63,171 nucleotides of DNA from a virus (taxonomy: Duplodnaviria > Caudoviricetes), in IMG/VR virus record IMGVR_UViG_3300028392_000001, positions 1-63,171 of that record. The stretch is one strand, 5' to 3'. Positions 2,342-48,660 of the stretch are shown here, one piece after another (the stretch's first letter is position 1; every line of letters begins with the position of its first letter). A model generated the notes under the pieces. That model was given only the letters and a program-made list of their open reading frames with translations. It ran no database searches and was not told where the DNA came from. A program made the position numbers and the translations under genes.

Positions 2342-4537
2342 ATGCAAAATATCCAAAATAAGCCCATTTATTTGCGTTTTTATGCCATTTCGGACGATGG
2401 TAATACAAATATACAAACGCCCATGACGGGCGATAATAACGCAAATAACGATAACGGGTTGTCTGCTGACAATTACGCAAGTAGTTTTGTCTCTGGCGTT
2501 AGTCCACAAGCTGACGGAAAAGATGAAACTTTTATAACTCCTACTGACATAGGGGCTGTTTCTTCTCCAAACGAGTATGACAACTTTTATTCTAATTACC
2601 TTTCTACTCCTCAATCAAATCTTCCTAGAGAATCAAATGCTGACTATTTTGTTAATCCTAATCGTTCAGTTAATTTAGGAACATATAGTGGAAAAGTAAT
2701 TGGCAGCGTTCCTATCTTTGGAGGAGGGATGGCTGTTAGAATACCTTTCGCAGCTTATGCCAATAAGCGTAATGAGCTTGAGGCGCAGGCAAGACTTCAA
2801 ATGCAAAGACTTGCCAAGCCACTTGACTACACTGTCCCAACGACAGATGCTAGGTATCAACAGAAATTTGCTAATACTTTTTTAAACAGCGTAAATTCTT
2901 TTATCGACAGAGCTCAAAAGGCTTATGGCAATAAAGCTTTTAGAATGCTCGAAAATCCTAGTACTCAAATAGGAAAAGAATACAAGCAAACACTTGAAAA
3001 CTTTAAAGCAGTAGGTGACGATATAAAGTCACTTGTTTCAACAGCTGCTGAAGTTGACAAGTCTGAAAAGTCAGGAGCGTATTTAACTCCCGAAGCATAC
3101 AAACTTAAAAATGAAATTTTAGGTGGAATTGCTGACTTGGATAAAAACGGCTATTCCTCTGTTAATATAGCTGAAAAGCAATCTAAGCTTAAAACTCACA
3201 TGAACCTGTCGCAAATACTTGACAAGGAATGGAACAACATAAAGCAAGATTTGCAGTCAACTTACAATGCTGGCAAAGTTGACGGAAGTATAAAGGGAAG
3301 CTATTATGACTTTCTTGTTCAGCAACAAAAAGAGTTTCTTTCAAGTGGAAGAGCTGAGGATATTGCTAAGTCATTAGCCACTCAGCATCCAAATACTATA
3401 TTTGACGAAGAAACAGGAAGACAACGTTCTGACCAGCCATTTACAACTAAAGAAGCTAAAGACTACATTTCTTCTATGTTTGGCGACAGGATTAAACTTG
3501 AAGGAACAGTTGCTTACAATCAAGCTAAAAACAAAACTAACATATACACAGGAAACCCTAAAGATGTTTCTGCTTCAGGTGACTTTGTTATAAGCACGTA
3601 CAACAATCTTGCTAATGGAGATGTTTTTGTTGTGGATAGTAAAAACAAAATAGTTCCAGGTAAAGGCGGAGTTATGGTATATAATGACGGAGTGGCAAAA
3701 ATGATTCCTTTTGGCGATAAGAGAGCTATTATGGAAGCCATTGTAAACATTTCTTCTAAGCAGCCTAGCTTGTGGGGAGCAGGAACAGAGTACACTGTTG
3801 CTGACGTAAATGCTCACATGAAGTCTAACTGGGATAATCTTTATAACAAGAATACCAAAAACAACACTCCAGACTATAAAAACCTTTTGCCTGCTGTCAA
3901 CAAAGATATTACAAGTAAAGTTAACAACGTAGCATATAATTATGGAATTGTTCCTATATCTCCAGGATTAGATTTGACAGGAGCTTCTGTTGATAACTCG
4001 GGAAGACTATCTTTTACAGCTAAGGTTGGAAACAACGAGGCGCTAAACGTAGGGGTTCCTATTCCAGCGTCTTCTCTTTCTGGGGAAGAAAAAGGAATAC
4101 TTGACAATACTTACAATGCAGCAACTGCTGGCAATTTTGTATTTGTTCCTGGAGCAAAGTACAAGCTTGACCCCGATGGAAATGATTATCAAGTTATTCT
4201 TTCTAATGGCAAAGTATTTCAAACTGGCGACCACACCTTTCTTATACCTAAAGAATCTATTGAATCTCCTATTAATGGAGTTTACAATAATGCAGTAAGG
4301 TCTTCTGTTTCAAAAACAAGTTCTTCTCAAGGAAGTCAAAGTACTCCAAATACAGCTGGGAAGCCAAAGCAAATTGTAACAATGGTAGACCCAGCAGTTG
4401 TTTGGTCTAAACCTACCTCGTCTATAAATATTTCAGGAGTTGTGTTAAAGTCTTCTGACGGAACAAACTATGTAACACAAGATGGTTCCGCTAGATACGT
4501 TAAAACAGCAACTGGAAGTTTCAAAAAAGTTCAATAA
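2342..4537 (+). CDS. Putative internal virion/ejection protein (731 aa; start uncertain)
   Basis: Long ORF between the small ejection-like gene and the giant protein; its 5' end overlaps an AG/CT-free element. Confidence 0.55.
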   Translation: MQNIQNKPIYLRFYAISDDGNTNIQTPMTGDNNANNDNGLSADNYASSFVSGVSPQADGKDETFITPTDIGAVSSPNEYDNFYSNYLSTPQSNLPRESNADYFVNPNRSVNLGTYSGKVIGSVPIFGGGMAVRIPFAAYANKRNELEAQARLQMQRLAKPLDYTVPTTDARYQQKFANTFLNSVNSFIDRAQKAYGNKAFRMLENPSTQIGKEYKQTLENFKAVGDDIKSLVSTAAEVDKSEKSGAYLTPEAYKLKNEILGGIADLDKNGYSSVNIAEKQSKLKTHMNLSQILDKEWNNIKQDLQSTYNAGKVDGSIKGSYYDFLVQQQKEFLSSGRAEDIAKSLATQHPNTIFDEETGRQRSDQPFTTKEAKDYISSMFGDRIKLEGTVAYNQAKNKTNIYTGNPKDVSASGDFVISTYNNLANGDVFVVDSKNKIVPGKGGVMVYNDGVAKMIPFGDKRAIMEAIVNISSKQPSLWGAGTEYTVADVNAHMKSNWDNLYNKNTKNNTPDYKNLLPAVNKDITSKVNNVAYNYGIVPISPGLDLTGASVDNSGRLSFTAKVGNNEALNVGVPIPASSLSGEEKGILDNTYNAATAGNFVFVPGAKYKLDPDGNDYQVILSNGKVFQTGDHTFLIPKESIESPINGVYNNAVRSSVSKTSSSQGSQSTPNTAGKPKQIVTMVDPAVVWSKPTSSINISGVVLKSSDGTNYVTQDGSARYVKTATGSFKKVQ
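2362..2463 (+). repeat. AG/CT-free dispersed element copy 1
   Basis: Core gcccatttatttgcgtttt; internal inverted repeat ttatttgcgtt/aacgcaaataa. Confidence 0.8.
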
Positions 4538-4557
4538 CAATATCAAAGTCACTAGTC

Positions 4558-7500
4558 ATGGCAGAAACAAAACTAGGAATTCCAGTAGGAACTCCTGATA
4601 AAATAGCTCCTAACGAAGGCGCTATTGAAAATATGCTCCACACAATAGAAAGAGCATCGTCTCCTCAAGGTTTGCCTCAGTCGCAACCTATTCAAAATAC
4701 TAGTCAAGTAAATGAGCTTCCTGACGAAGTTCACGGAGTTGTAGAGGAGGCAACTAATAATTCTCATGACAATCTTCCTGAAGAAGTTCATGGCGTTATA
4801 GAAGAAACAGTAACTCCTGACCTGCCAGAAGAAGTTCACGGAGTTGCGGAAGTATCTGAAACAAAGCCTCAGGCTTCTCCCGTTCAATCAATATTTGCAC
4901 AGCCACATCCTGACATTGCCTCTAAGAATACTTACGAGAATGGTTGGACTTTGGCTGGTCAAATGAATCAAGAGTTTAATAGACTTGTAGACCAATATGG
5001 AAGAGATAAGTTTACCTCTGAGTGGAACGCAGCAAAGACGGAAGAACAAAAAACTAAAACAAATCAACCAGCTCCTGTTTACATAAATGGAGTTGAGCAA
5101 TACGTAATAGAAAAAGAGCCTTCTCTTATGGAGAAGCATAACAACTTCTTTGGTCATATAAATGACGAAATAGGAAAAGAGGTTAAAAATGCTTGGGATT
5201 GGGTTAGTCAAAAAACATATAGAGAAAGTAACGAGGCAGAAAAAAGAAAAACAATGCTTCAAACTTCTGCTTATATGCACGGAGATTATTTGGATTGGAA
5301 AGAGTTGACTCCTGATGCAAAAAGAGTTATAACTCAAATGAACAATGAAAAAATAAAAGATAACAATTACGGAATAGTAATAAACAGCACTACTGGAAAA
5401 ACAGACCAGATGATTAAAGACCTATCAAAAACTGTAGGAGACTTTAATCTTGTTTTTTCTACAATGGGAACTCCGATTGAAAAAGATTCAATGAAGGAAG
5501 GAGAAATGTATTTTAAAGACCAAAAGACTGGCGGAGCATTAGTTCCAAATTCTTTCTTTTCAGGTCTTATGAAAAAGTATGGAGAATCAGCATTAGACCC
5601 ACAGGTTGTTGAAAGAGAATATATAAACAGCGTAAATAAAAACAAGTATGGAATCTATGAAAAATATGGATTTGTAGGTGAAGTTCCTAAAAACACTCCA
5701 GAGGTTGTTTCAGAATTGCTTCAAAGCAATACTTATTTAAATTCTTCAGCAGCTGAAAAAAGAGCAATGCTTGTTGATTTGCACAACAGAGTTCCTGATT
5801 TAAAAGCAACACCACTCGAAAGTTTTATATACAACTATCAAAACACATTTACTCCAGCTTTAGACCTTAGCGTAATGAAAGCTATGGCAAAAGAAAGATT
5901 AGATAAACTTCCAAAAGATTTAAGTTTAAAAGAAAATATATTAAAACTAGGAAGCGAGTTTCTTCATCCAAGAGCTTCAGGAGATATTCCTACTGACGAA
6001 ATGGAAGAAGATAGAAAACTAGACAATGCTAAAAACTTTTATGAAGATTTAATTGAGCATCCTTACGAAGGCGAGGGTTCTTGGCTTTCAAAAATGAATC
6101 CTTTTAACAAGTCTAATAATGGATATAAAGCTATTCCGTTTTTAGGTTCAGAAATGGATGCTTTTAAAAATCTTGATTTATACATAGCAGCAAAGACAAA
6201 ACAAAAAGACCTATCTCCTGGAGATGCAGAGCTTCTTGAAGCAGCCAAAATATATAATGCAGGAATATCTCTTTCAAAGAATGACTTTTATTATTCTTTA
6301 GGGAAAGACGTTCTTCCTAGAATGGTATCTTTTATTGGTGAGATGGGAGCTACAAAAGGCATTTCCGAAGGAACAGGTCTTGCTTTTGAAAAACTTGGTC
6401 AAAGAGCACTTGAGGCGCAAGGAATACAAAACGCCAGCAAATGGACACTTCAGTCTATAAACGGACTTGGCAAAACAGTTGATTTACTTACCCAAACGTC
6501 AACTTCTGGAGCTACTTTAATTCCTTCAGAAACATTAAGAAGAATGACTCCTCAAGATGGATTCTTCTTTTCTAATAATTCAAATGAAATAGTACATAAT
6601 TTTCAGTTAGCAGCAGGAGATGATTTTGCTACAGCATTAACAAAGTCTTATCTTAATCAACTTCAAGAAGTTGGAACAGAAAAAGTAGGTGATTTACTTC
6701 AAGGAAAGGTCATGGATGCTTTTCTTAAAGGAGCAAAACTTTCAGGCAAGGCGGTAGAGGGACTTGCTACAATAGCTGGAGTTTCAGAAGAAACAATAGA
6801 AAGGTTTTCAAAGTTAATGGCTAACGCTCAAACAAGAGCTTATGCCACAAGAGTCATGCTTTCTGATTTTGCCAAGAAAACAGGAGTAGACTTTTCTTTG
6901 AATCCGCAAAGCTGGACGCCAAGAGCAATAAAAGATTTAATGAAAGAATCTTCTATTAACTCTTACCCAATGGAGGTTTTTGAAGAGTTTCTTTCAAACA
7001 GAATACAGCCAAGAATTGAAGGAGAAGCCGACCCTGGACTTTATGACTTAGGTGCTTTAGGAAATGAAACTTATCAGAGTTCATTAGCTATGGCTCCTTT
7101 ATTTATGTTCGGTTTAGGTACCTCTGTTTTAAGTACTGGATATAATTCAGCATTTAGGCCAGAGTACACTAGGTTTGGACAGCTTCATGACGATATACTT
7201 AATATGAGTAATGAGGAGTTTATAGTTAGGAGAGACAAAACTATGGACGAAATTCAGTCTTTTTCTAATCCTTCATTGCGTTCGGCTCTTTCTGGAATAG
7301 TTTCAAAAAGACTTGACTACAATGGAGAAAAGCCATTTTCTGAGTTTTATAATGAATACACAGGACAGGCAAAAGAGCTTCAGTCACTTTACTCTAGGAT
7401 AAAAAGCGGTAAGTTTGATTCTGATGCTTCTGTTGTTGACGCTATTCAAAACGGAATGTCTTCAGCAGTTCATGCAGACATAAGAGATGAATACGAGTCA

Positions 7501-10500
7501 ATACTAAATAATCATGCTGCTTTTGAAGAGTCTAAAGCTAAAGGAACTTTTGATGGAACGTTCTCAAAGTATATTTCCACAGAGATTGACAAAGTAAACG
7601 AAGTAAGGTCTACTTTAGCAAACTATATATCTAATGGAATTGGCAACATAAATGGAATTTCAGAAGAAATAGAAACACTTAATACTTCAGAAAAGAATAA
7701 AGAATCTTTAAGAAGTGCTAATAAAATAGCTCAACAAATAAGAGTTAATACACTTGAAAACTTTTCTGTTGACAGGAACGGAGTAACAGCAAGACCTTCC
7801 GTTACTTTTTCTGATGGTATAAGGTTTGACTTAAACGAAGATGGCGAATATGTTTTTAAAGGAGGGGGCGATGTAAAAGAAACTTTGCCAACTATAGCTT
7901 CTGCTATTGACGGCATGGATTCTGCTCAACTTGTCGAAGCGTCAAATGTAATAGCAAACATGGCTGGTGTTGAAAGCGAAGACAAAGTTGCGCTTAATGG
8001 AAAAATAGCGCAAAGATTTGTAGACTCGCTTAAAACAGCTTCTAACATAGAAACACTTGGTGCTGGCAGTGTAATTGATATGTTCGAAGCACTTGATAAT
8101 ATTTATGCTCAGGAACACAAGCCACCTTCTAGTGTTAAAGCAGACGCTTTGGCTAATCTTAAAAGACTTATAGGAAACTCTATGTCTCAAGATTCGTCAG
8201 CAAACAACGCTTCGAACATGAGAAAGCTCGTGTTCAACGTAGCTCAGTTTAATAACGTAATGACTTTTAAAGACTGGAATAGTCTTCACGGCTCTATAAA
8301 AAATAAAGAAGGAGTTGTAAGGGAAATTGAAGAGCCTACTGATTCAGAGTTTTCTGTTGTGTCTGCTGAAGACAAAATACGTAAAGTTTTAAAAGGGCTT
8401 AAGTTCAGTAAACTACATACACTCAAGTCTTTAAAGGAACTAAATGCTAGTGTTAAAAAGTTTGACGAAGTTCTTGCTAAGCTTGCCGAAGACAAGGACA
8501 TAGACTTTACTAAAAATGGAGTAAACGTTCTTCGTTCAATCGTATTGCAGTTACCTAGTGAGTTATTAGACTTTAATACCAAAATAGAAAAGTCTGACTC
8601 AAAACAAGGTTCTTACTACGACCCTGTTACAAGGACTATACACATAAACGTTAACGGAGCTTCTGAATCTCAAATTGTATCTGAAACAGCAGAGGAGATT
8701 GCTCACTCTGTTCATCATGCTCTTGTTGGAAAGTCTGTCAATATGACTTTAGATTCCGACCAGCTGGAAGAAATACTTGGTAACGTTCCTAAATCTGTCA
8801 AGTCGTTTAATGAGTTTTTTAATTCAAAGAAGTTTGATTATGCTTTATTTCAGTCACTTACTGAAATGAATCCTTCTGAAATGTCGGACGAACAAAAAGC
8901 TTTACTTGCTGATATAAAAGCTATGCTGAAAGTAGCCGCAGGAAAGAGCAAGACATCTATTTATTTTATATCTGCTTTTGACATAGGTCACGACAAGAAG
9001 CTTAATACTAGAAACATCGTAGAGTCTTACAATAGATATAAGATGTTTAAAGAGGCTGGGTATTCAAATACTCAGTCACTTTATTATGCCACTAGCAGAG
9101 CTGAATTTACCGCAAGAGTATTTGCTGACTACTTGATTGACAAAACAGCTCAGTACAATATAAATGAAGCTACAGGTGTTTTCGCAACGTTTGATAAGCT
9201 TAGAGCTTGGACATACAAGAACGTTGCCAAGCCTATACTTCAAAGTGTATTTAAAAACTCCGAAATAACAGTTGACAACAACATAGTTTATTCTATACTT
9301 GGAGAGTATGGAGTAAAGACAATGGAGAAAGCTATTGACGACTTGGGTATGGAATCTCCGAGCACTGCTGTAGATGAGAATGGAAACAGAATCTTCTCAA
9401 TGAGAATGACTCCTGTTTTTGAGAGTAATCCTATTGTTGTAAACGAAAAAGATTTCGACAAGTTGTCAAGAAATCTTTACAACAAGAGTCCACTCGATTT
9501 TGACTTAGAGAACAAGTACTCTTCTCGCTCTGACAATGCCTTCTTAAAAGAATACGAAGCTGCCGGAATTTTTGACGTAGAAAAGCAATTAGAGCTCTCT
9601 GCCAAGATAAATGAAGACGAAGAAAAGATTGATGAAGTAAAGCAGTCTAGGCTTAATCAAATTGAGAAATTGCTGGTTAAAGAAAAAGATGAGGATAAAA
9701 TTAACTCTAAGCGTTCCGAAAAAGAAGCAAAAGCACTAGGATACTTATTTGCCACAACTAACAAAAAGGTTATAACTAAAAATGCTGAATCTCTTTTTGG
9801 AGTTAATGTATCTAATCTTCTCGATAATATCAAATACAATTACGGAGTAGACATAATCTCTTCCGCTCCTTTGATGAGTGCCGAAAATGGCAAGCAATAT
9901 TCAAAAAGCGAAATGGATAACGCTCAAATTTTGCCCGTTTTGGGCATTTATAAACGTTTTAACGATGTTTTACCCGTTACGGTATTGTTATATTCACCCG
10001 AAAATAAAATCGTTAAAAACGGTTTGGAATCGAGCAAACTATCCGATTCTCCTGAATACTTTGATACTGAAACCGGACTCTATGTTAAATTTATACCAAA
10101 AACATCTTCTCCTGGTGAAATTGTAATTAATGACAACGAAGAAAGTCAAAATACAGAACAAGAAGTTAAGGACTTAAACATCTCTATACAAAAAGGATTT
10201 AAAAGTCTTTCAAGTCTTTTGGGGATAGAACTTGGAGAGTCTCAAGATAGAAAAATATACAGCATACGAAATGAAGTTAATGGCTTTGACTTTATTAAAA
10301 AGAAACTTGGAGAAACAACAGCTAAGGCAATAAGAGAAAGCATTCCTTCGGCACTCGACCAGCCACAAGAATTTTACGACTTTATAACTGAAAAGATTCC
10401 TGTAAAAGAAGACATACCTTTTATTGTTAAAACAATCCCCTCTAGGATTGATGCTCTTTTTAGAGAAAGTAAAAAATATGTTGAGTCTGAAAATAAAAAT

Positions 10501-38707: not shown

Positions 38708-38722
38708 TAAAATTTGACTTTG

Positions 38723-39988: not shown

Positions 39989-39993
39989 ACTAT

Positions 39994-40588: not shown

Positions 40589-40591
40589 GAT

Positions 40592-40795: not shown

Positions 40796-40855
40796 TTACC
40801 TATTACTAAGAATGTCTTCTCTTATTTGCAAAAAGTCTTTGCTCGCTTAACATGA

Positions 40856-41476: not shown

Positions 41477-41503
41477 TGCTATTTACTTTGTTATTAAAGT
41501 TAG

Positions 41504-41577: not shown

Positions 41578-41585
41578 TGAAGAAA

Positions 41586-42026: not shown

Positions 42027-42498
42027 TTGCTCTTTCGTTTATGAATTTAGGAATAGGTCTATCGGTCCATGACAGCAAATCGTTCTCGTACATTTCTGCA
42101 TACTCGTTGCGATAGCTTTCTATGGTGTTTATTTTGCCATTCTCAATACGATAGTTGTCGGTAGACACTACGCATGGAAAGGCTTCAAGTTCTCCTTCGT
42201 CAAGGTCGGGAAACTCTAATGAAAGCAACTCAACCTCGTGTTTAAGATAGTGAGACACTCCGTTTCTAAACTTGTATTCGTCAATGGCGCACTCAGCTAT
42301 CTTAACAACGATTTCGTAGTTAGAAGCATTGCGCTTACAGAACTCAACAAAGGGGTTTTTACTTGAGTGTTCAAGTCCAAATCGAGCTGGGCTTGTTACG
42401 TGAATAACAGATTCAATGGTTTCCGACAGATGTTCGTCTGCAAGATACCTAACAAGTTTTTCAGGGTTAAGGTCGAGGATGTAAAGATTATCTTCCAT
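42013..42498 (-). CDS. Pyrimidine-dimer DNA glycosylase-like protein, divergent and acidic
   Basis: NLYILD.NP...ADEH, NPFVEF.KRN..NY, EYKFR.G..H, SYRNEY, SWTDRPIP pattern of that family. Confidence 0.55.
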   Translation of the reverse strand: MEDNLYILDLNPEKLVRYLADEHLSETIESVIHVTSPARFGLEHSSKNPFVEFCKRNASNYEIVVKIAECAIDEYKFRNGVSHYLKHEVELLSLEFPDLDEGELEAFPCVVSTDNYRIENGKINTIESYRNEYAEMYENDLLSWTDRPIPKFINERANEKR

Positions 42499-42682
42499 TT
42501 TTTTTTGAAGTTATTTTGAGGTAAACGATTGTGCAAGAAATAGTCACTAAGGAAATCATTATCAAACTACATACAAACGAAGTAACAAATGGCGACAAAG
42601 GTAACACTCCAAGAGTAGGTAGGCAAACAGCCAAGCATATCCAAAGGTATTCTTTGCTACAGTGTTTTCTTATCTTTGCCAT
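42488..42682 (-). CDS. Small two-TM membrane protein
   Basis: Two hydrophobic segments in 64 aa. Confidence 0.55.
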   Translation of the reverse strand: MAKIRKHCSKEYLWICLAVCLPTLGVLPLSPFVTSFVCSLIMISLVTISCTIVYLKITSKKNGR

Positions 42683-43014
42683 TATCTTACTTTTTTGTTA
42701 TGTTGCTCAATCATTAATATAACTACATCAACTATGTTATCACTGTTTACAAACTCCGTAGCTTTAACTAGAATGTCATGGTTTGCTCGATAAGTTTCCC
42801 AAACAACTATGTCGGTATCTTTCTTAATGCAAACCTCTTCAAGCTGACCGTTAATGTCTACCATTATTCTTCCGCCTTCAGTGGTATGTTTCCTTATAAA
42901 ACGAAGCAGTCTTTGCTGCATTGAGTAGTCGGAACATATCTGAGGATTGTTGTTTATTCCCGTCCGAGTTCCTATTGAATAATAAGTACTGCCGTTGTGT
43001 TTGTGAGTAGCCAT
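42682..43014 (-). CDS. Hypothetical protein (start reassigned to MATHK)
   Basis: The longer ORF overlaps the tRNA-like element; ATG 43014 has the ATAACCTTTTAAA upstream motif. Confidence 0.6.
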   Translation of the reverse strand: MATHKHNGSTYYSIGTRTGINNNPQICSDYSMQQRLLRFIRKHTTEGGRIMVDINGQLEEVCIKKDTDIVVWETYRANHDILVKATEFVNSDNIVDVVILMIEQHNKKVR

Positions 43015-43062
43015 TTTGATTAAATTTTTTAAAAGGTTATTGTTAAGATTAAGAAAAAATTG

Positions 43063-43158
43063 TGACAAGGACAGGAGTCGAACCTGCACGAAGGCGAGCC
43101 ATTCCTCTCTATCTCCTTCTGTCTGTTAACTTAGCGTCTACCATTCCGCCACCTTGTC
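43063..43158 (-). ncRNA. tRNA-like RNA (Leu-type D and T arms, no canonical anticodon arm)
   Basis: GACAAGG/CCTTGTC-A acceptor, TGGCGGAATGGTAGACGC D-arm, GCAGGTTCGACTCCTGT T-arm; the middle 46 nt do not form a 5-bp/7-nt anticodon arm. Confidence 0.7.
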
Positions 43159-43165
43159 TTTGATA

Positions 43166-43405
43166 CTAGAGTCCTATGTCTGCATCGCTATATTGCTCGT
43201 AAGAAATGTCAGGGTTGTTTTCGTTAGAAAGACACCAGTTGCATTTGTTGTCGTCTTCGGTTGAAACGTAGCTGTACTCCATCTGGTTATCAACAATTAT
43301 CTCAAACTCCTCACCACAACTTTTACAGGTTTTAACTACTGTAACTTTACGCCTGTTGTTAATAACGTGGCGCTTTCTTTTTTTTGGTTCACTACTTTGA
43401 CTCAT
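43166..43405 (-). CDS. Small zinc-ribbon protein
   Basis: CKSC...CNWC. Confidence 0.65.
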   Translation of the reverse strand: MSQSSEPKKRKRHVINNRRKVTVVKTCKSCGEEFEIIVDNQMEYSYVSTEDDNKCNWCLSNENNPDISYEQYSDADIGL

Positions 43406-43408
43406 AGT

Positions 43409-43786
43409 CTATCTTTTTACCAAAGGTACATAGTCAAAATAGCATTTGCCATCAAGCTTTTCAGATGGCTTGCTTAATTCTTTGATTGACTCTTCAGACC
43501 AGTAGTCTATGTTGTGGTCTTCAATCATGAAAGCGGCAGTAAGTTCGGAATCATTAAGCTCTTCGTAAACAATCTCAATATCGTAGTAGTCTCCGAAGTC
43601 GTGCTCGTTCTTGTTAAACTTAAGCATACCAATAGGAATGTTAGGAATGTTCTCGGCAATCTCCTTAATCATACAGTTATACTCCATTCTCATTAAAGCC
43701 AACTGTATTTTTGGAGGAGTTTTTTTGTCAATGTTCCAAGTGTTCTCCAGACTAGGAGTACTGTCTATAAATATTGAGTTTTTCAT
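43409..43786 (-). CDS. Acidic hypothetical protein
   Basis: 125 aa; HDFGDYYDIEI. Confidence 0.6.
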   Translation of the reverse strand: MKNSIFIDSTPSLENTWNIDKKTPPKIQLALMRMEYNCMIKEIAENIPNIPIGMLKFNKNEHDFGDYYDIEIVYEELNDSELTAAFMIEDHNIDYWSEESIKELSKPSEKLDGKCYFDYVPLVKR

Positions 43787-44499
43787 TACGCTGCTTTTTT
43801 AGTTTTAGACTTGAATTTATTTGTTAAATTAAGATATTCATCAACAGAAATTACTTTGCTGGACTCTTTAAAGTAATAACCAATAAGGCTGATAGGTCTA
43901 TTGAAGGTCCAGTCATATACCTCTACGACAGGTTTCTTTTCGTCATAGAACCTTTCGTTTGCAGAAAGGTGGTATTCTATTTTAGAAAGAATCTCGTCGT
44001 TGTCAAAGATACTACCGGTTTCGTTAAACTTTTCCAAGTCCTCATCGTTAATCTCTCTGTCGTCAACAAAGGAAGAACTATTTTTGAAGATTCGGTATCC
44101 GCAAGTTGTATTGTAGAAAGGTCTTTCAATGCTGTCTTGAATCGCATCCATAATAACTACCTGACCTTTTCGGCAGGTAAATACTGCTGCAAGAAAGGTT
44201 GGCTTGTTGTCGTAAGCGAATTGCTCGTTTCTGATGTCGTTCATAAGAACTGTGTAACTTTTGCCCGTACATTCGAGGTCAACAACAGCGTGCCACATAG
44301 TTTTGTCTTCCTTGTTTTTCAAGGAGAAGAACTGACTTATGGTAGCATATCCTCGTATGTGGTGGCGCAGCTTTCCTCGCTCGTCTTCTCGAACTGTAGC
44401 AACTACACGTTGTCCGACGTGGAATCTGTTATCAAAGAATACTAGGGTTTTCTTATCTGCCGTTAGCAGAGGAGGCATGAAGTGTTTTTTACTTTCCAT
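43786..44499 (-). CDS. Hypothetical protein
   Basis: 237-aa ORF. Confidence 0.6.
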   Translation of the reverse strand: MESKKHFMPPLLTADKKTLVFFDNRFHVGQRVVATVREDERGKLRHHIRGYATISQFFSLKNKEDKTMWHAVVDLECTGKSYTVLMNDIRNEQFAYDNKPTFLAAVFTCRKGQVVIMDAIQDSIERPFYNTTCGYRIFKNSSSFVDDREINDEDLEKFNETGSIFDNDEILSKIEYHLSANERFYDEKKPVVEVYDWTFNRPISLIGYYFKESSKVISVDEYLNLTNKFKSKTKKAA

Positions 44500-44527
44500 T
44501 AGTTATTATTTTTAAAAAGGTTATGAA

Positions 44528-44830
44528 TTATACAGGTCTGTTGCAAGCAGTACAGTACCAACTGCCGTTTTTCCACTCGCCTTCGACTTCAATATCGCTT
44601 TCGCTTTCGCATCCATAAGAACATCCTTCGAAGTCCCAACAAGGCTCGTTCTGTTCTTCGAGAACCATAAAGCGACCATTCTCGTTTTCGTAGAATATTT
44701 TCTTATCAAAGTCCATTCCGTTCTCGAATGAAAGGATGTCTTCGATTGTGTCGCCAATCTTATCAAAGGTGGCTTCAGTTAGGTTTCGAGCTTTAGTTAC
44801 AGTCTTGTTCTTATATACTATGAGGTGCAT
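44528..44830 (-). CDS. Acidic Cys-containing hypothetical protein
   Basis: 100 aa; CSYGC...CTAC; directly downstream of promoter 44857-44888. Confidence 0.6.
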   Translation of the reverse strand: MHLIVYKNKTVTKARNLTEATFDKIGDTIEDILSFENGMDFDKKIFYENENGRFMVLEEQNEPCWDFEGCSYGCESESDIEVEGEWKNGSWYCTACNRPV

Positions 44831-44856
44831 ATCTTTGATGCTTTAAAATTGTTATA

Positions 44857-44888
44857 CAAATGTAATAAATTACGGTAATTTTTGCAAA
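44857..44888 (-). promoter_or_regulatory. Promoter with palindromic operator AATTACnGTAATT (44868-44880)
   Basis: Minus strand TTTG-N20-TACATTTG, a perfect Bacteroidota consensus. Confidence 0.75.
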
Positions 44889-44889
44889 T

Positions 44890-45114
44890 TTATTTTGACT
44901 GATTGCTTGGCAAATGTTTCTCGTAAATAAACCAGTTGGTGTCGAATGTAGGGTTGATATAGTTTTGCCACCACTCGTTCCAACTGTAACAAAAGGTAGA
45001 TTCATTTTCAACCATATCTTCTTTATTCATAAACAAGTACTCGCCATCATCAAAGTGACGGTGAGCAATTTTATTGCCAGCAATCATTGCATCTTGAGCT
45101 TCTATTTTAGTCAT
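44890..45114 (-). CDS. Hypothetical protein
   Basis: 74 aa; EAQDAM..GNKIAHRHF..GEYL. Confidence 0.6.
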   Translation of the reverse strand: MTKIEAQDAMIAGNKIAHRHFDDGEYLFMNKEDMVENESTFCYSWNEWWQNYINPTFDTNWFIYEKHLPSNQSK

Positions 45115-45509
45115 TGCTTCTGTTTTTTAATTAATAGTTCCTTAAGTTCGGTTAAATCTACTTTTGCGGTTTTTTCTAGATCATCTACTTTAAGGTTAAT
45201 TAAAGTTACTGTTCCATCAAGATTATCATGAACATTTTGAATAGCTCTCCATTCGTCAAGAGAAAGGTCAATTTTTCTTGCTTCTTTAATAAAAGATTCT
45301 TTTATAATCTCATAGCAATTTGTTATTCCATTTCCTTCTATTTCTGTTGTGTATTTTCTTTCGTCTATCCATCTTCCAACAGCACATCTTCTTCCATCAG
45401 AAGTAAGGTAGCGACAGTTTCCATCCTGAATAGCTACAGTAAAAGGGTCTTCAAAGTATGGCTTGAGGGTTTTAAGAATGAACTTTTGTTTTTTAAGATT
45501 TGTGCTCAT
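45111..45509 (-). CDS. Hypothetical protein
   Basis: CRYLTSDGRRCAVG...QNVHD motif. Confidence 0.6.
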   Translation of the reverse strand: MSTNLKKQKFILKTLKPYFEDPFTVAIQDGNCRYLTSDGRRCAVGRWIDERKYTTEIEGNGITNCYEIIKESFIKEARKIDLSLDEWRAIQNVHDNLDGTVTLINLKVDDLEKTAKVDLTELKELLIKKQKQ

Positions 45510-45527
45510 GATTAATTTTTTAAAAGG

Positions 45528-45866
45528 TTAAGAGTATATTTTTTGCAATAAAATAGTTTTTACTTTACTCGTGGCATCAATGTATTCCTTATCTGTTTCA
45601 AAAGCACTGTAAAAGGGAACATGGTAGATGTAAGCTTGGTCGCATTTTTCAGGCAGAACTATGTAGTTTTTTTCTTCAATATTTACAAGCGTGTAACTAT
45701 ACTTTTTGGCTTTGTCTGCTTCAGATATTCCGTCGTTAAGACTTTTGACGTCTTGTTGACTAAAGTTATCGCTAACAACTTTTGCTCTACGAGCTTCGTT
45801 AAAAAAGAAAACATCTTTCTGATTGCTTTTTTCAAAAGAAAGTATGCCGTAAATTAATAGTTTCAT
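45528..45866 (-). CDS. Hypothetical protein
   Basis: 112-aa ORF. Confidence 0.55.
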   Translation of the reverse strand: MKLLIYGILSFEKSNQKDVFFFNEARRAKVVSDNFSQQDVKSLNDGISEADKAKKYSYTLVNIEEKNYIVLPEKCDQAYIYHVPFYSAFETDKEYIDATSKVKTILLQKIYS

Positions 45867-45897
45867 TGGAGATTAAAGATTTAAAAAGGTTATAGGA

Positions 45898-46302
45898 TTA
45901 AAATTGCTCAGGTATTGCGCACACTTTGGTACTCCAGCTGTCAGTGTCAAGGCACTTGGTAAAGAAGTCTAGTCTTTTAAATATAATCTCAGGAATTATA
46001 AGCTGAGATGTTTCTAGCACTTCGATGGCTTTGGTTATTTTATGGTGCTCGTCTTTAAGTTCAAACATCATGTGCTGATAGTGCAAGAAAGGAACGGGAG
46101 TTAAAAGGAGGGTATACTTTTTAGAAACAGACATCTTGTAATCTCGGTGGTCGTATCCTTCAGAGTGAAGTTCGCTTACCTCAGTTAGGGAAAACTCGAT
46201 GTTGTCAGGTTGGGAGGTAAAAAGAAAGGTGAGAATATTGTCGTCGTAGTTGTCGAAGTCAGTCGAGATAGGTAAACCGAGGATAGATAAAAGGATTTTC
46301 AT
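45898..46302 (-). CDS. Hypothetical protein
   Basis: 134-aa ORF. Confidence 0.55.
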   Translation of the reverse strand: MKILLSILGLPISTDFDNYDDNILTFLFTSQPDNIEFSLTEVSELHSEGYDHRDYKMSVSKKYTLLLTPVPFLHYQHMMFELKDEHHKITKAIEVLETSQLIIPEIIFKRLDFFTKCLDTDSWSTKVCAIPEQF

Positions 46303-46379
46303 AAGATAAAAGATTTAAAGATTAAGAATGGAGAAATAGAAAACAAAAGAATAAAAGAAAAAACTGAGTCCCGCCCGCA

Positions 46380-46830
46380 ATGTTATAACTTAACTATATT
46401 AGCATATCTTATAATGTTCTATATTTTTATTAACTATAAAAGCTATAAAAGCTATTACAATAAAACAATTAAACAATTAAACAGGACAACAGTAAAACAT
46501 TTAAACATAGCAATCAACCTATCAAGGTAGTTAACAATATTTAAGTAGTAACAATAGTAAAACAGTAACAACTAAACAATATTACAATGACACAGTTTTA
46601 CAACTGAACATTAGAACCGTTAGAACAATAGTTACAACAGTAATAACTGTTATATATGTTTTAACCTTTTATATATTCTAAAACTATTTAATAATATACT
46701 GTAATTAAAACTATTATGAAACTGTAACTTTTAGAAACAATATAAAATAGTATTAACAGTATAAATTTAATAGTGAAAGAACATTTTTTATTTGTTATTG
46801 TATTAATTATTAGTATTTTAACTATTATAA
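46380..46830. other. Long AT-rich non-coding region with AACAAT/AACAGT micro-repeats (candidate origin or terminal region)
   Basis: No convincing ORF; very low GC; strongly A-skewed top strand. Confidence 0.5.
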
Positions 46831-47076
46831 TATTATAACAATGTTCTTAATGTTTAGGACTATAAGCCAGCGCACAACTTTTAAGTAAAAGTTTTTTTTT
46901 TCGAGACCAGATTTTTGCGAGTGAAAGTTAGACAGGAATTGGAGGGAGGAAATAGCTAATTTACAGTATAGTAAACTGATTCTTATTCCCAGTTTCAGAC
47001 ATTTTAACTGCGTTTTCACCTCAAAAATTCATTTTTAAGCCCACCTAAACGTGCCAAGTTCCTGCAATTTTCACAA

Positions 47077-47110
47077 AAAGAAACGCCCCACAATATTTTG
47101 TGAGGCGTTT
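47077..47110 (-). terminator. Rho-independent terminator after the 47135..47779 gene
   Basis: aaacgcc-cacaa-tattt-tgtg-a-ggcgttt hairpin with an A-run on the plus strand (T-run on minus). Confidence 0.65.
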
Positions 47111-47134
47111 CGGTTAGCATAGTAAGCCGGTTTT

Positions 47135-47779
47135 TTATTCTTCTTCGTCAGCATCTGCTGTCGCAGCAGGAGCTGCCGGTGCAGATGGTTCAGCTGCTGT
47201 TTTGTCAGCTGCTGTTTTGTCAGCTTTTTCAACTTCCCTTACGGTGTATGTTCCAGGTATTTTTTCATTTTTGGTTAATGAAAGAATCTCCCTACGGCTA
47301 TTGAGCCCCGTCCAAGTTTTAGGTTCAGGGGTTACGCCGTCAGCAATTAATTGCTTAAGCATTGCTGCGTAAGATGGAAAAACTTGCGTACTTCCGTCCT
47401 TTTTGACGTAGGTAATTTCCACATTAGAAGAACGTTCTCCACCGGCAGCCGTACCTTCGGCGCGTTTTTTGGTTGATGTTACTTCGAAGGTAAGCTCACC
47501 ATTTTCACTTTTAACTGCAGCAATGCCAATAATAACACGTTCACCGTTTGCCAATTCATTACCTACAGCAGTAGCAATTTGCTCAGCAGATGCCGTTAAA
47601 AACGAAATAAGTTTCGTTCCAATAACAGCAGACTTTTGTGAAGCAAGCTGCGCCTCAATCGACGTAATTGCTTCAGCAATGTTTGAGGGACAGTCCACCC
47701 CTGCTGCTTCCAATGCTGCTTTTGCTGCGTAGTTTTTCTTAAGCTCAAGTTGTAGCTCATTAAATTTAATCATATCCAT
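47135..47779 (-). CDS. Stand-alone early gene, Ala/Lys-rich (possible nucleoid-associated DNA-binding protein)
   Basis: 214 aa; N-terminal coiled coil, basic linker TSTKKRAEGTAAGG, ADKTA repeats; has its own terminator. Confidence 0.55.
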   Translation of the reverse strand: MDMIKFNELQLELKKNYAAKAALEAAGVDCPSNIAEAITSIEAQLASQKSAVIGTKLISFLTASAEQIATAVGNELANGERVIIGIAAVKSENGELTFEVTSTKKRAEGTAAGGERSSNVEITYVKKDGSTQVFPSYAAMLKQLIADGVTPEPKTWTGLNSRREILSLTKNEKIPGTYTVREVEKADKTAADKTAAEPSAPAAPAATADADEEE

Positions 47780-48101
47780 AGTTCGTTAAAATTGTGCCAA
47801 CAGGCAAAAGTTTTGCGCCTGTTAGCGGGTTAAAAATTGAGATATGCCAATATGCCAAAGAACTACGATTTCCACCTACCTTACGGGGCAGTGTTGTTCA
47901 GTATTTCGGGTGCGTTTTACCGTTCCCCGTTATCATGTTCCAAAAATAAGGTAAATAATTCAAAACGCCTAGTTCCGTTCATTTATTTTGCGTTTAAAAT
48001 TGTTAAAAAATGTTAAAGGATTACGGTAAAATTTACATAAAAAATTTTGCGACAATTCAAAATAAAATTTACACAAATTTATCTCATGCCAATCTTTTAC
48101 T

Positions 48102-48243
48102 TGTTAAAACATATATGTTATAACAAGTAAAAGTGAATGTGTGTTACAACAAATAAATACCTGTTACAACAGGTAAAATGAATATGTGTTACAACAGATA
48201 AAATATATGTTACAACAGATAAAAATGAATATGTGTTACAACA
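48102..48243. repeat. Iteron-like array: seven TGTTnnAACA copies (mostly TGTTACAACA)
   Basis: Copies at 48102, 48116, 48142, 48162, 48187, 48208 and 48234. Confidence 0.85.
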
Positions 48244-48536
48244 AGTAAAAATGCCTCGTAAAATATTTATATATGTAGATAACTCGATATTGATGTGGGC
48301 GTGAGGGAAAGTCATATAAGAAAAAACTCGATGCGTTATAGCGATTTCCCCATTTCGCAGTGGTAGGGGTATGATAATAGGTGGTTATACCCTTTCGCCT
48401 ACTAAAAATAACTCAAAATAAAAAAACTATCAATTTTTTCCTGTTGTTACAATTCAACTTGTCAAATTACAGACCTTGTTGCAATACGCCCATCCTATTT
48501 ACTTGTTTATAAACGCCCAAGTTTTAGCAGAATAAC

Positions 48537-48660
48537 TATATTCAAAATACCATTTATTAACGTTTTAACCGTTTTAAACGGGTTAATATTGGGTTAAACG
48601 GTTTATATGTTTTGATATTTTAAATTGCGTGGTGCGCCCGTAACGGGGCAAATTTTCGAA
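48537..48660. repeat. AG/CT-free dispersed element copy 7 (diverged; upstream of terminase)
   Basis: catttattaacgttttaaccgttttaaacgggtt...cggggcaaattttcg. Confidence 0.65.

What the first reader, a model, noticed from the sequence alone, without database searches (positions are those of the whole stretch)
2362..48660. Seven dispersed 90-150 bp elements with a common core and total absence of AG/CT dinucleotides
Seen in sequence: 2362-2463, 9924-10033, 21938-22031, 23754-23876, 28042-28194, 40263-40352 and 48537-48660 contain no AG or CT dinucleotide, although both are frequent elsewhere. Five share the core GCCC(G/A)TTTATTTGCGTTTT and copy 2 has a looser version. These six lie in the same plus orientation regardless of transcription direction; copy 7 is more diverged. 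CG steps alternate with A/T-tracts at roughly helical spacing, in two arms around a central spacer; copies 1 and 5 have inverted arms (TTATTTGCGTT/AACGCAAATAA). Inference: these are cis-acting DNA-shape sites, such as strong-gyrase-like wrapping sites, packaging/ejection pause sites or phage-protein loading sites. Alternatively they must stay free of a modification placed at AG (see the methyltransferase finding).
Basis: partly seen in the sequence, partly recalled or inferred. Interest (0 to 1): 0.85.

Follow-up and report, generated by a model that had tools for sequence, protein, structure and literature searches.

The report
AG/CT-free islands in evenly AG-marked phage
A freshwater phage and its relatives place the two-letter step AG/CT at least about every 30 bases throughout their DNA, except in a handful of 90-150-base regulatory islands that lack it completely; this looks like a two-letter marking code, probably read through DNA methylation.

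Summary
The window is a whole 63,171-bp circularly assembled phage genome. All seven carry a conserved 20-26-nt arm on the + strand, an AT-rich spacer and a weaker inverted arm. The same two-armed, AG/CT-free intergenic elements occur in every member of a deep phage clade (portal 34-39% identical) and in none of 10 complete outgroup genomes.

New here: outside the islands the clade places AG/CT so that gaps above about 22-31 bp almost vanish. Synonymous-codon shuffles give 3-4 times more long gaps (z -7 to -10), and controls show little or nothing. Among 545 genome-by-motif tests only AG/CT in the three clade genomes behaves this way.

Best reading (about 0.5): AG is the target of the clade-specific Dam-family adenine methyltransferase (27141-28022). 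The genome is then densely marked, and the islands are mark-free landing pads for host RNA polymerase and an arm-binding factor. The methyltransferase's specificity is untested. Strand co-orientation of the arms is unexplained.

The parts
2362..2463 (+). Class I island 1: strong arm GCCCATTTATTTGCGTTTT at its left end, inverted arm AACGCAAATAA at 2438. Lies between ORF 1604-2293 and the probable start (ATG near 2430) of the 2342-4537 ORF.
9924..10033 (+). Class I island 2: variant arm at 9945-9964. Lies in frame inside the 3741-aa ORF (aa 1789-1826), in that protein's non-conserved middle.
21938..22031 (+). Class I island 3: begins 11 nt after the stop of ORF 21397-21927. The ATG of a 55-aa zinc-ribbon-like ORF (22014-22181) lies at its right end.
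23754..23876 (+). Class I island 4: lies between two minus-strand genes, 9 nt from the start of ORF 23269-23745.
28042..28194 (+). Composite island 5: class II promoter-like TTTG-N20-TATATTTG on the minus strand (28043-28074) directly upstream of the methyltransferase gene, followed by a class I element (arm 28094-28119, inverted arm 28148).
40219..40352 (+). Island 6: class I element 40263-40352, plus a 44-nt AG/CT-free left flank that carries TATTTTTG on the minus strand upstream of ORF 39994-40248.
48537..48660 (+). Class I island 7 (diverged): arm variant at 48551 on +. Lies 75 nt upstream of the 780-aa terminase-like gene 48735-51077.
38664..38718 (-). Class II island (55 nt): palindrome AAAATTACCGTAATTTT with TAATTTTG on both strands, upstream of ORF 38189-38668.
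44842..44899 (-). Class II island (58 nt): TTTG-N20-TACATTTG on the minus strand (44857-44888), upstream of ORF 44528-44830.
47901..48083 (.). Cluster of AG/CT-free runs (49, 46 and 66 nt) in the divergent intergenic region 47780-48734, which holds 60 AG/CT against 104 expected.
27141..28022 (-). D12-class (Dam-family) N6-adenine DNA methyltransferase, member of a subfamily private to this phage clade. Candidate writer of an AG mark.
1..63171 (.). Genome-wide AG/CT spacing rule: no gaps of 36-43 bp, and all 14 gaps of 44 bp or more lie in the listed islands or at 47520-47563. Geometric expectation for gaps of 36 or more is 52.

Best explanation
The seven elements are the most visible half of a two-letter DNA code used by a deep clade of roughly 63-69-kb phages. 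These come from freshwater-labelled and other metagenomes, and the host is probably a Bacteroidota.

Shown: everywhere except in a few islands, AG/CT steps are positioned so that no stretch longer than about 22-31 bp lacks one. This holds even in coding DNA, through the placement of synonymous codons. In the islands the step is absent for 45-155 bp.

Inferred: AG is the target of the clade's private Dam-family N6-adenine methyltransferase (27141-28022). Phage DNA is then methylated on one strand or the other at least every two to three helical turns. The islands are the only mark-free DNA long enough for proteins that cannot bind marked DNA.

Two kinds of island exist. Class II islands (55-66 bp, about the span of a polymerase on a promoter) carry host-type TTTG/TAnnTTTG promoter boxes upstream of the minus-strand replication genes. 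Each arm holds two CGTTT words 10 bp apart.

Inferred: an unidentified sequence-specific protein binds the two arms as a symmetric complex on duplex DNA. It most likely controls transcription of the gene that each element abuts.
For: The islands are real and conserved.
- Seven runs of 90-153 nt in the window.
- The G001 relative has seven elements with a strong arm on +, an inverted arm at an offset of exactly 68 bp in 7 of 7, and only 3 AG/CT in 7 x 88 bp.
- G002 has five arms. Partial genomes G004, G005, G010 and loci L114, L115, L119 also have islands.
- Runs beyond a 0.01-expectation threshold: G000 6, G001 3, G002 3, and 0 in each of 10 complete or nearly complete outgroup relatives.
- The six island-bearing genomes form one group in the portal tree (support 99/99) with long internal branches.

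The spacing rule.
- G000 gaps of 31-36 bp: 9 against 63 expected. Gaps of 37-45 bp: 2 against 33. Outgroups run at about 0.6 of expectation.
- Upper-tail ratio is 0.17/0.17/0.23 in the clade against 0.46-0.69 in the 10 outgroups, and the other nine dinucleotide steps do not differ.
- Pooled controls: 58 loci with generic Dam-like genes 885/1531; 39 outgroup portal loci 906/1499; 6 loci with the subfamily methyltransferase 11/84.
- Synonymous-codon shuffles, gaps of 26 or more: G000 29 against 95+-9, G001 42 against 156+-10, G002 64 against 147+-10. AG/CT density is unchanged by the shuffle in G001 and G002.
- The union AG|CT is constrained (z -9.9, -10.5, -7.4) more than sense-strand AG or CT alone. 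This points to duplex DNA.
- No trinucleotide subset does better than plain AG.
- Of 545 genome x motif tests the three lowest ratios are AG/CT in G000-G002, and the next is 0.42.

The methyltransferase link.
- Pfam D12 class scores 106.9 bits (cut-off 22), and the FGGTGS and DPPY motifs are present.
- Orthologues at 42-48% identity are in G001 and G002. None is in G003, and none in 29 further relatives except a 30%-identical gene in G018.
- The subfamily is about 47 protein clusters, with longest contigs of 61-72 kb among several of them. Scores then drop from 283 to 202 bits.
- GATC is nearly absent from these genomes (3, 0 and 0 against about 210 expected).
- The EcoDam residues that read GATC (K9, L122, R124, P134; roles from passages of PMC4417163) are not conserved in the HMMER alignment. 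GATC is therefore unlikely to be its target.
- Precedents: M.CviQII of a chlorovirus is reported to modify the dinucleotide AG, and prophage Dam-related enzymes (Hia5 family) are nearly non-specific (passages of PMC3299994).

Islands as regulatory DNA.
- All 7 G001 elements are intergenic, 8-78 nt from flanking ORFs. Five of the 7 window elements lie outside ORFs.
- TAnnTTTG, the flavobacterial sigma-A -7 box (passage of PMC9723704), occurs 9 times in G000 islands against 1.7+-1.2 in shuffles. The figures are 7 against 2.5 in G002 and 5 against 2.3 in G001.
- Two class II islands hold the full TTTG-N20-TAnnTTTG pattern upstream of minus-strand genes.

Arms as protein sites rather than an RNA stem.
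- The variable arm positions differ between left and right arms of one element without compensation (sequences).
- Only 2 of 7 window elements and 2 of 3 tested G001 elements fold better than shuffles.
- Rfam finds only tRNAs.
Against: - The methyltransferase's specificity is not known. No methylome, no characterised close homologue (best cultured-phage hits are 34% identical or less) and no structural inference ties it to AG.
- AG is not a sub-site of GATC, so the shift from a Dam ancestor would be a real change of target.
- The link between methyltransferase and AG/CT code rests on one clade, that is one evolutionary event. An SNF2 helicase (31138-32898), a DUF1064/resolvase-like nuclease (30218-30769) and ORF 1604-2293 have the same phyletic pattern among G000-G003.
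- L117, a 10.9-kb locus with the subfamily methyltransferase, obeys the spacing rule but holds no island.
- A single N6-methyl group in a promoter spacer is not known to block RNA polymerase, so the reader of the mark and the reason for a 22-31-bp ruler remain unidentified.
- For class I elements no host-type promoter box is found on the + strand of any window island, apart from the palindromic partner at 38695.
- The full bipartite promoter pattern is not enriched genome-wide (4 matches against 2.15+-1.4).
- Arm polarity is uniform within each genome but flipped between sub-lineages, and this model does not explain it.
- Two outgroups show a weak shuffle effect: G016 117 against 142 (z -2.7), and G003 106 against 143, which becomes 117 after density correction.
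Confidence: 0.5

Rival explanations
1. AG/CT is read directly, without any modification. A phage or host protein recognises AG/CT steps or their absence: for example a nicking or restriction-like nuclease in the style of the chlorovirus enzyme Nt.CviQII, which is recalled (not seen in any call) to nick at R^AG; the clade-specific SNF2 plus DUF1064 pair; or a DNA-coating protein. The islands would be the stretches it must not touch, or the only ones it can bind.
For: The constraint is on the duplex step and is specific to AG/CT. Any duplex-reading factor with dinucleotide specificity would explain that. The SNF2 and DUF1064 genes share the methyltransferase's phyletic pattern among G000-G003. 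The phage library labels DUF1064 as Holliday-junction-resolvase-like.
Against: A requirement for AG/CT at least every 30 bp is hard to explain if AG/CT were a cleavage site. Reading the absence of one dinucleotide step over 30 bp or more by shape alone has no precedent I know of. A covalent mark gives a simple steric mechanism, and a candidate writer is encoded.
Confidence: 0.17
2. The seven class I elements are polar DNA-level machines: strong gyrase sites, packaging or ejection pause sites, or replication or architecture anchors. On this view AG/CT-freeness is a shape requirement of that machine.
For: Arms are co-oriented within each genome (G000 7/7, G001 7/7, G002 5/5). There are about seven copies spread at 2-17 kb intervals in both complete genomes examined in detail. 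The two-armed symmetric layout has a spacer fixed at 48 bp in G001.
Against: Polarity relative to a collinear gene order is opposite in the G002/G004/G010 lineage. Positions are not syntenic between G000 and G001. AG/CT-freeness also holds for arm-less promoter-like islands, and the genome-wide spacing rule is left unexplained. A separate iteron cluster at 48130-48250 is the more likely origin.
Confidence: 0.12
3. RNA-level function. The elements would be transcribed leaders, processing hairpins (like T7 RNase III sites) or small RNAs, and AG and CU would be avoided to escape a ribonuclease.
For: The inverted arms can pair: copies 1 and 5 fold with z -3.0 and -4.0, and two of three G001 elements tested with z -3.0 and -4.4. 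The elements lie between co-directional genes and so are probably transcribed.
Against: Five of 7 window elements fold no better than shuffles, z -0.02 to -1.3. Arm differences are not compensated. There is no Rfam match. The avoidance is strand-symmetric, and the spacing rule is strongest for the union of AG and CT, not for either in the sense strand.
Confidence: 0.05
4. MITE- or REP-like mobile elements with terminal inverted repeats that spread within the genomes.
For: Inverted 20-nt arms, a fixed 88-bp unit in G001, intergenic copies and non-syntenic positions.
Against: Spacers of copies within one genome are unrelated in sequence while arms and spacer length are kept, which is not the pattern of recent transposition. 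No transposase was found among the ORFs scanned (not all ORFs were scanned). AG/CT-freeness of diverged spacers needs selection in any case.
Confidence: 0.04

Closest known systems
CpG islands of vertebrate genomes (recalled general knowledge)
   Same: Short regulatory DNA segments set apart from the bulk genome by their content of a methylatable dinucleotide.
   Different: The logic is inverted here. The dinucleotide is absent from the islands and positively maintained, with a maximum spacing, in the bulk. The difference is kept by selection, including at synonymous sites, not by mutational decay. The genome is a phage, and the mark would be N6-methyladenine.
M.CviQII / Nt.CviQII of chlorovirus NY-2A. 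M.CviQII is described as modifying the dinucleotide AG in passages of PMC3299994. The original paper, Chan et al. 2006, was seen only as a reference entry.
   Same: A virus-encoded adenine methyltransferase with a two-letter target, AG. It is the precedent that such an enzyme can exist.
   Different: No AG-free islands or spacing rule are reported for it in the passages and listings I saw. The host is a eukaryotic alga.
Hia5/Hin1523/Nma1821 non-specific adenine methyltransferases of Mu-like prophages (passages of PMC3299994)
   Same: Phage-borne, Dam-related fold with a DPPY motif and very relaxed target specificity. They protect phage DNA broadly.
   Different: They methylate almost any adenine outside poly(A), not one dinucleotide. 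No genome-wide counter-adaptation of the phage sequence is described in those passages.
Restriction-site avoidance in phage genomes (recalled general knowledge)
   Same: Selection on the occurrence of short words in a phage genome. The same genomes do avoid GATC, GGCC, CAATTG, GTAC or CTAG.
   Different: Avoidance removes a 4-6-bp word everywhere. Here a 2-bp step is required everywhere at a maximum spacing and excluded only locally.
Repeated phage regulatory elements: T7-type phage promoters, T4 MotA boxes, crAss-like middle promoters (passages of bioRxiv 10.1101/2020.03.07.982082; T7 and T4 recalled)
   Same: A conserved 20-26-bp word repeated 5-7 times upstream of genes and co-varying between related phages.
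   Different: The layout is two inverted arms at fixed distance. All copies lie on one strand regardless of gene direction. No phage RNA polymerase motif (DFDxD) was found in any ORF of G000-G002. The elements are embedded in AG/CT-free islands.
REP/BIME elements of enterobacteria and strong gyrase sites (recalled)
   Same: Dispersed intergenic inverted-repeat elements of about 100 bp that bind architectural proteins or gyrase.
   Different: There is no sequence relation. Spacers here are unrelated between copies. No binding data exist.

Membership tests
D12-class (Dam family) N6-adenine DNA methyltransferase (gene 27141-28022) | Pfam PF02086 above gathering score; AdoMet motif FxGxG and catalytic DPPY | tested here: met
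   106.9 bits against a cut-off of 22. FGGTGS and LDPPYIG are aligned to DpnM and EcoDam and are invariant in 26 subfamily members.
GATC-specific Dam/DpnM orthologue | Conservation of the GATC-reading residues (EcoDam K9, L122, R124, P134), and GATC sites to act on | tested here: not met
   The HMMER alignment gives K9->S, R124->K, P134->D and a gap at L122. Residue roles come from passages of PMC4417163. The alignment is at low identity, so it is tentative. GATC occurs 3 times against about 209 expected.
AG-specific adenine methyltransferase (M.CviQII-like) | Demonstrated methylation of A in 5'-AG-3' | not testable with these tools
   No methylome data are available. There is only indirect genomic evidence.
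Methylation-motif-free island (CpG-island-like logic) | Motif absent in the island, frequent and maintained elsewhere | tested here: met
   0 of 789 steps in the islands. Genome-wide the share is 13.6% with enforced spacing.
Methylation-motif-free island (CpG-island-like logic) | Bulk DNA actually modified at the motif, islands unmodified | not testable with these tools
   This needs SMRT or Nanopore modification calls on native DNA.
Host sigma-A promoter of Bacteroidota (TTTG ... TAnnTTTG) | -33 TTTG and -7 TAnnTTTG at 19-21 nt, upstream of a gene on the same strand | tested here: inconclusive
   Met for class II islands at 28043-28074(-) and 44857-44888(-). TAnnTTTG is enriched in islands. 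Not met for class I elements on the + strand. The whole-genome count of the bipartite pattern is not above chance.
Structured RNA / RNase III-type processing site | Conserved stem supported by stability and compensatory changes | tested here: not met
   Five of 7 window elements have z between -0.02 and -1.3. Arm differences are uncompensated. Rfam finds only tRNA.
MITE/REP-like mobile element | Copies alike over their whole length, terminal inverted repeats, target-site duplication | tested here: not met
   Inverted arms are present, but spacers are unrelated between copies. Target-site duplications were not looked for systematically.
Strong gyrase site / packaging or ejection signal | Gyrase cleavage or wrapping, or a fixed polarity relative to the packaging direction | tested here: inconclusive
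   Binding is not testable. Polarity relative to the collinear gene map differs between G000/G001 and G002/G004/G010, which argues against a role linked to packaging direction.
Replication-origin iterons | Clustered direct repeats at about helical multiples in one intergenic region | tested here: not met
   The class I elements are dispersed single units. A separate cluster of five 29-nt repeats at 48130-48250 fits an origin better.

The most novel reading that the evidence does not exclude
A lineage of phages runs a genome-wide two-letter epigenetic code. A private Dam-derived enzyme methylates every AG. The genome sequence has been sculpted, down to the placement of synonymous codons, so that no window of about 30 bp escapes the mark. 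The only unmarked DNA consists of a dozen islands, which thereby become the sole places where polymerase and regulators (or another mark-sensitive machine) can engage. This would be a viral, inverted counterpart of CpG islands with a built-in molecular ruler. The mark would act as a 'closed / self' signal, shielding or silencing the bulk genome.
Probability: 0.4. Interest if true: 0.93.

Novelty: categorically new. Interest (0 to 1): 0.88.

Why it matters
If the reading holds, this is a new way for a virus to organise its genome. A dinucleotide mark is enforced at a maximum spacing by selection on synonymous sites, and mark-free islands define where proteins may act.

It would show that phage methyltransferases can shape whole-genome sequence, not only protect restriction sites. 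It would reveal an unknown reader with a footprint of two to three helical turns, which could be a host defence, a phage nuclease or the transcription machinery. It would also give a simple sequence signature, a truncated gap distribution plus motif-free islands, that can be searched for with any short motif in the millions of uncultured viral genomes. That could predict methyltransferase specificities and regulatory regions without experiments.

Even if methylation is not the mechanism, the statistical pattern is strong: z about -10, conserved across genomes whose portal proteins are only about 35% identical, and unique among 545 tests. It demands an explanation.

Tried and rejected
- Exact-core search of IMG/VR: 9 loci, each with a single match inside ordinary AG/CT-containing, apparently coding sequence. 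These are chance matches, not relatives.
- Single-protein locus searches with the portal and the primase-helicase found nothing. An alignment was needed.
- Cultured-phage collection: no DNA match, no portal match, and methyltransferase hits at 34% identity or less. No cultured relative could be tested.
- crAss-like virion RNA polymerase idea: the 3741-aa protein has no PDB sequence match and no DFDxD-type motif. Dropped.
- Sigma-70 scan of 21800-41000: 57 sites against 51+-7 expected. Uninformative apart from two class II hits.
- CtrA-box-like TTAA-N7-TTAA in G001 arms: not kept in G000 or G002 arms (by eye). Dropped.
- Sigma-54 and IHF consensus by eye: no consistent match.
- Long runs free of other steps in relatives (AC/GT in G003, AT in G001) are purine-rich or collagen-like coding repeats and a terminal tandem repeat, not analogues.
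- GATC avoidance as the cause: L022 and L044 are GATC-free with normal AG/CT gaps in the 20-22 kb fetched. No methyltransferase was found in their records, which are 52% and 83% complete. The two traits are therefore separable.
- The second methyltransferase idea, for the 1059-aa protein 33853-37032: only a sub-threshold C-terminal AdoMet-motif match (PHROG E 9e-5; Pfam 19.5 bits against 26.7; Atlas 0.90 with 165 shared features). No DPPY or FxGxG motif. Left as a note.
- Expression: no RNA holder is listed among the public runs, so transcription starts could not be examined.
- Microdiversity: laying three runs of Logan contigs on 21500-41000 gave no substitutions to analyse. The single joint 23781->28091 runs through the 32-nt identity of elements 4 and 5 and may be a k-mer assembly artefact.
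- Literature: searches (listings and abstract starts only) showed no paper describing dinucleotide-free islands or a dinucleotide spacing rule in a phage. This is a limited search of an open-access library, not proof of absence.
- Structure prediction, complex prediction, fold search, the search of protein representatives and the genome-contig scan were not used. None would have given the methyltransferase's target.

Full report
**What the window is**

The window is the whole record: one contig of 63,171 bp. Its first 127 nt are repeated at the end, so it is a circular assembly of a phage genome at 35.8% G+C.

Its recognisable genes are these:
- a P22-type portal (51686-53926);
- a terminase-like 780-aa gene;
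- a 3741-aa protein with BspA-type leucine-rich repeats;
- a primase-helicase and an SNF2 helicase;
- a PDDEXK exonuclease and a DUF1064/resolvase-like protein;
- a D12-class adenine methyltransferase (27141-28022);
- a tRNA-Met.

Structural genes run on the + strand (48735 through the origin of numbering to about 23272). Replication genes run on the - strand (47779 down to 23269).

Two public runs labelled freshwater metagenome hold about half of the sampled words. When laid, their contigs were mostly at least 99% identical. One of them may be the source sample. There is no cultured relative.

**Checking the observation**

The next longest are 66, 58 and 55 nt.

AG and CT together are 13.6% of steps in the genome and 0 of 789 steps in the seven runs. 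In the runs CG is enriched 3.1-fold and GA/TC is depleted to 0.3-0.5. Order-1 and order-3 Markov genomes have a mean longest run of 56 and 54.

Only the intergenic regions that hold the elements are AG/CT-poor. For example 23746-23865 has 1 against 12.7 expected, while the 832-nt spacer 46303-47134 has 87 against 80.5.

The 19-nt core occurs five times, all on +. Copies 2 and 7 carry a variant arm, also on +.

**Anatomy of the elements**

Each element has three parts: a strong left arm (window consensus TCAAAA..GCCCRTTTATTTGCGTTTTAAMCG), an AT-rich spacer, and a weaker right arm that is the inverted copy. The inverted copy is clear in copies 1 and 5.

Relatives made this plain. Portal homologues (63 proteins, nearest 50% identical) led to 44 IMG/VR loci. 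Five of these (L011-L014, L019) showed the same kind of AG/CT-free runs.

In the complete relative G001 (66,393 bp) there are seven elements. In 7 of 7 the arm CGTTTAAATGCGTTTTAACG lies on +, with its inverted copy at an offset of exactly 68 bp. That makes a 20 + 48 + 20 bp unit with only 3 AG/CT in all 7 x 88 bp.

Spacers of different copies are unrelated in sequence, but keep their length, an AT-rich TATA-like centre and AG/CT-freeness. Each arm holds two CGTTT words 10 bp apart.

The variable arm positions differ between the left and right arm of one element without compensation. Only 2 of 7 window elements and 2 of 3 G001 elements fold better than shuffles. Rfam finds only tRNAs.

The arms therefore look like duplex protein-binding sites, not an RNA or cruciform stem.

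**Where the elements sit**

All seven G001 elements are intergenic, wedged 8-78 nt from neighbouring ORFs. Two flank the 3529-aa giant gene.

In the window, five of seven lie outside ORFs. Copy 1 overlaps only the doubtful 5' extension of ORF 2342-4537. Copy 2 lies in frame inside the 3741-aa ORF (aa 1789-1826), in the part that does not align with the G001 or G002 homologues.

Positions are not syntenic between genomes.

Within each genome the strong arms share one strand: G000 7/7, G001 7/7, G002 5/5. In G002, G004 and G010 that strand is the opposite one relative to a gene order that is otherwise collinear with G000. I cannot explain the co-orientation. The flip argues against a role tied to the direction of transcription, packaging or ejection.

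**The genome-wide rule (new)**

While checking controls I saw that clade sequences have almost no AG/CT gaps of intermediate length.
- In G000, gaps of 31-36 bp number 9 (63 expected from a geometric model) and gaps of 37-45 bp number 2 (33 expected). Outgroup genomes run at about 0.6 of expectation.
- There are no gaps of 36-43 bp at all. All 14 gaps of 44 bp or more are in the islands, except one in coding DNA at 47520-47563.
- The observed/expected ratio drops in a step after 22 bp (0.64 to 0.25 in G000). It is near zero beyond 31 bp in all four clade data sets, while ten pooled outgroups decline smoothly.
- The upper-tail ratio is 0.17, 0.17 and 0.23 in G000-G002 against 0.46-0.69 in ten outgroups. 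The other nine dinucleotide steps do not differ between the groups.
- Wider controls agree. 58 loci carrying generic Dam-like genes (695 kb) give 885/1531. 39 outgroup portal loci give 906/1499. Six loci carrying the subfamily methyltransferase give 11/84.

Shuffling synonymous codons within each gene keeps protein sequence and codon usage unchanged. Counts of gaps of 26 bp or more, observed against shuffled:

| Genome | Observed | Shuffled |
|---|---|---|
| G000 | 29 | 95+-9 |
| G001 | 42 | 156+-10 |
| G002 | 64 | 147+-10 |
| G013 (outgroup) | 183 | 173 |
| G015 (outgroup) | 165 | 161 |
| G016 (outgroup) | 117 | 142 (z -2.7) |
| G003 (outgroup) | 106 | 143 (117 after density correction) |

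In G001 and G002 the shuffle leaves AG/CT density unchanged (6745 against 6744; 7346 against 7372). The effect is therefore purely one of placement.

The union AG|CT is far more constrained (z -9.9, -10.5, -7.4) than sense-strand AG (-6.4, -1.4, -0.8) or sense-strand CT (-4.5, -5.0, -4.0). GA|TC and AC|GT are unconstrained. No trinucleotide subset (RAG, AGY and so on) does better than plain AG.

Across 545 tests (13 genomes, all strand-symmetric di- and trinucleotides) the three lowest ratios are AG/CT in the three clade genomes, and the next is 0.42. Only those three combine a low ratio with at least three super-long gaps.

The unit being read is therefore the duplex step AG/CT. It is required at least every two to three helical turns and is forbidden in the islands.

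**Phylogeny**

The six island-bearing genomes form one group in a portal tree (99/99 support). It has three deep lineages with branches of 0.8-1.3 changes per site. The code is old and maintained, but its association with any gene is a single evolutionary event.

**The candidate writer**

Among window genes, four have tblastn matches in G001 and G002 but not in the outgroup G003: the D12 methyltransferase, the SNF2 helicase, the DUF1064 protein and ORF 1604-2293. The methyltransferase is absent from 28 of 29 further relatives. The exception, G018, has a 30%-identical gene and no AG/CT signal.

Its subfamily comprises about 47 protein clusters, several on 61-72-kb contigs. It is followed by a drop from 283 to 202 bits to ordinary Dam-like proteins.

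Of seven metagenome loci with subfamily members:
- L114, L115 and L119 hold islands of 107, 131 and 155 nt with the same arm type;
- L117 (10.9 kb) holds none but obeys the spacing rule;
- the other three loci are 2.7 kb or shorter.

Only 1 of 73 loci with generic Dam-like genes has a run over threshold: L168, 86 nt at a contig end.

The enzyme has the FxGxG and DPPY motifs. In the HMMER alignment it lacks the EcoDam residues that read GATC (roles from passages of PMC4417163). GATC is almost absent from these genomes (3, 0 and 0 against about 210 expected).

GATC avoidance also occurs in two relatives that show no AG/CT code in the 20-22 kb fetched and in whose incomplete records no methyltransferase was found. 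The two traits are therefore separable.

Two precedents come from passages of PMC3299994. M.CviQII is described there as modifying the dinucleotide AG. Dam-related prophage enzymes of the Hia5 family methylate nearly any adenine.

I could not determine this enzyme's target.

**What the islands do**

The shorter class II islands lie upstream of minus-strand genes. They carry the flavobacterial sigma-A -7 box TAnnTTTG (passage of PMC9723704). Two have the full TTTG-N20-TAnnTTTG, including one that ends 21 nt before the methyltransferase start codon.

TAnnTTTG is enriched in islands: 9 against 1.7+-1.2 in G000, 7 against 2.5 in G002 and 5 against 2.3 in G001. Start codons lack Shine-Dalgarno sequences. 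The abstract of PMC6847099 (listing) says this is typical of Bacteroidetes. The host assignment is an inference.

Class I elements also abut a gene start, but they show no host-type box on the + strand. No phage RNA polymerase motif was found.

I therefore favour control of host polymerase by an arm-binding factor. This step is inferred from position and architecture only.

A separate cluster of five 29-nt repeats at 48130-48250 is the better origin candidate, and it contains AG/CT.

**Synthesis**

The reading that covers both halves of the pattern with the fewest assumptions has three parts:
- AG is covalently marked on either strand by the private methyltransferase.
- The bulk genome is kept marked at a spacing shorter than the footprint of some mark-sensitive reader. 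A Bacteroidota core promoter spans about 32 bp, which equals the hard limit, but this match may be coincidence.
- The islands are the only unmarked DNA.

I put this at about 0.5. Direct, modification-free reading of AG/CT gets about 0.17. RNA-level and mobile-element readings get about 0.05 each.

The statistical pattern itself I regard as established.

**Novelty**

Three literature searches (listings only) returned nothing resembling a dinucleotide spacing rule with dinucleotide-free islands in a virus.

The nearest concepts are CpG islands (inverted logic), restriction-site avoidance (removal, not enforced presence) and hypermethylating viral methyltransferases (no reported sequence counter-adaptation).

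Noticed in passing
window, whole genome; also G001, G002: GATC is almost absent (3 sites against about 209 expected; 0 in G001 and G002) although the phages carry a Dam-family methyltransferase. GGCC and CAATTG are also avoided, as are GTAC in G001 and CTAG in G002.
   Followed up: partly
window 48130-48250: Five 29-nt direct repeats (core TGTTACAACA) spaced 20-26 nt in the divergent intergenic region between the replication and structural modules. This is a likely replication origin, and it contains AG/CT.
   Followed up: no
window 11249-12274: Twelve tandem 66-nt repeats inside the 3741-aa ORF, matching BspA-type leucine-rich repeats (Pfam LRR_5).
   Followed up: no
window 33853-37032 (-): A 1059-aa protein with only a sub-threshold C-terminal match to the AdoMet-binding part of N6/N4 DNA methylases, and no DPPY or FxGxG motif. 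It may be a degenerate or unusual second methyltransferase-like domain.
   Followed up: partly
window 43063-43158 (-): A second tRNA-like Rfam match (36.6 bits, 96 nt long) that ARAGORN did not call. It could be a tRNA with an insertion, or a false hit.
   Followed up: no
window 23781 / 28091: One Logan contig of run X1 joins elements 4 and 5 through their 32-nt identity, skipping 4309 bp. This is either a deletion variant by recombination between elements or a k-mer assembly artefact.
   Followed up: no
window 38664-38718, 28042-28090, 44842-44899, 48018-48083: The class II islands share a palindrome, ATTACCGTAAT, within the promoter-like region. It looks like an operator for a dimeric repressor controlling the minus-strand genes.
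   Followed up: partly
G001 (L062) 66205-66393: A 15-nt tandem repeat array (CTGCGCCCTGTAAGT-like) at the end of the related genome G001, next to its terminal repeat.
   Followed up: no
islands of G000, G001, G002: Besides AG/CT (0.02-0.06 of expectation), GA/TC is consistently halved (0.44-0.46) and CG tripled (2.7-3.3) in the islands of all three genomes.
   Followed up: partly
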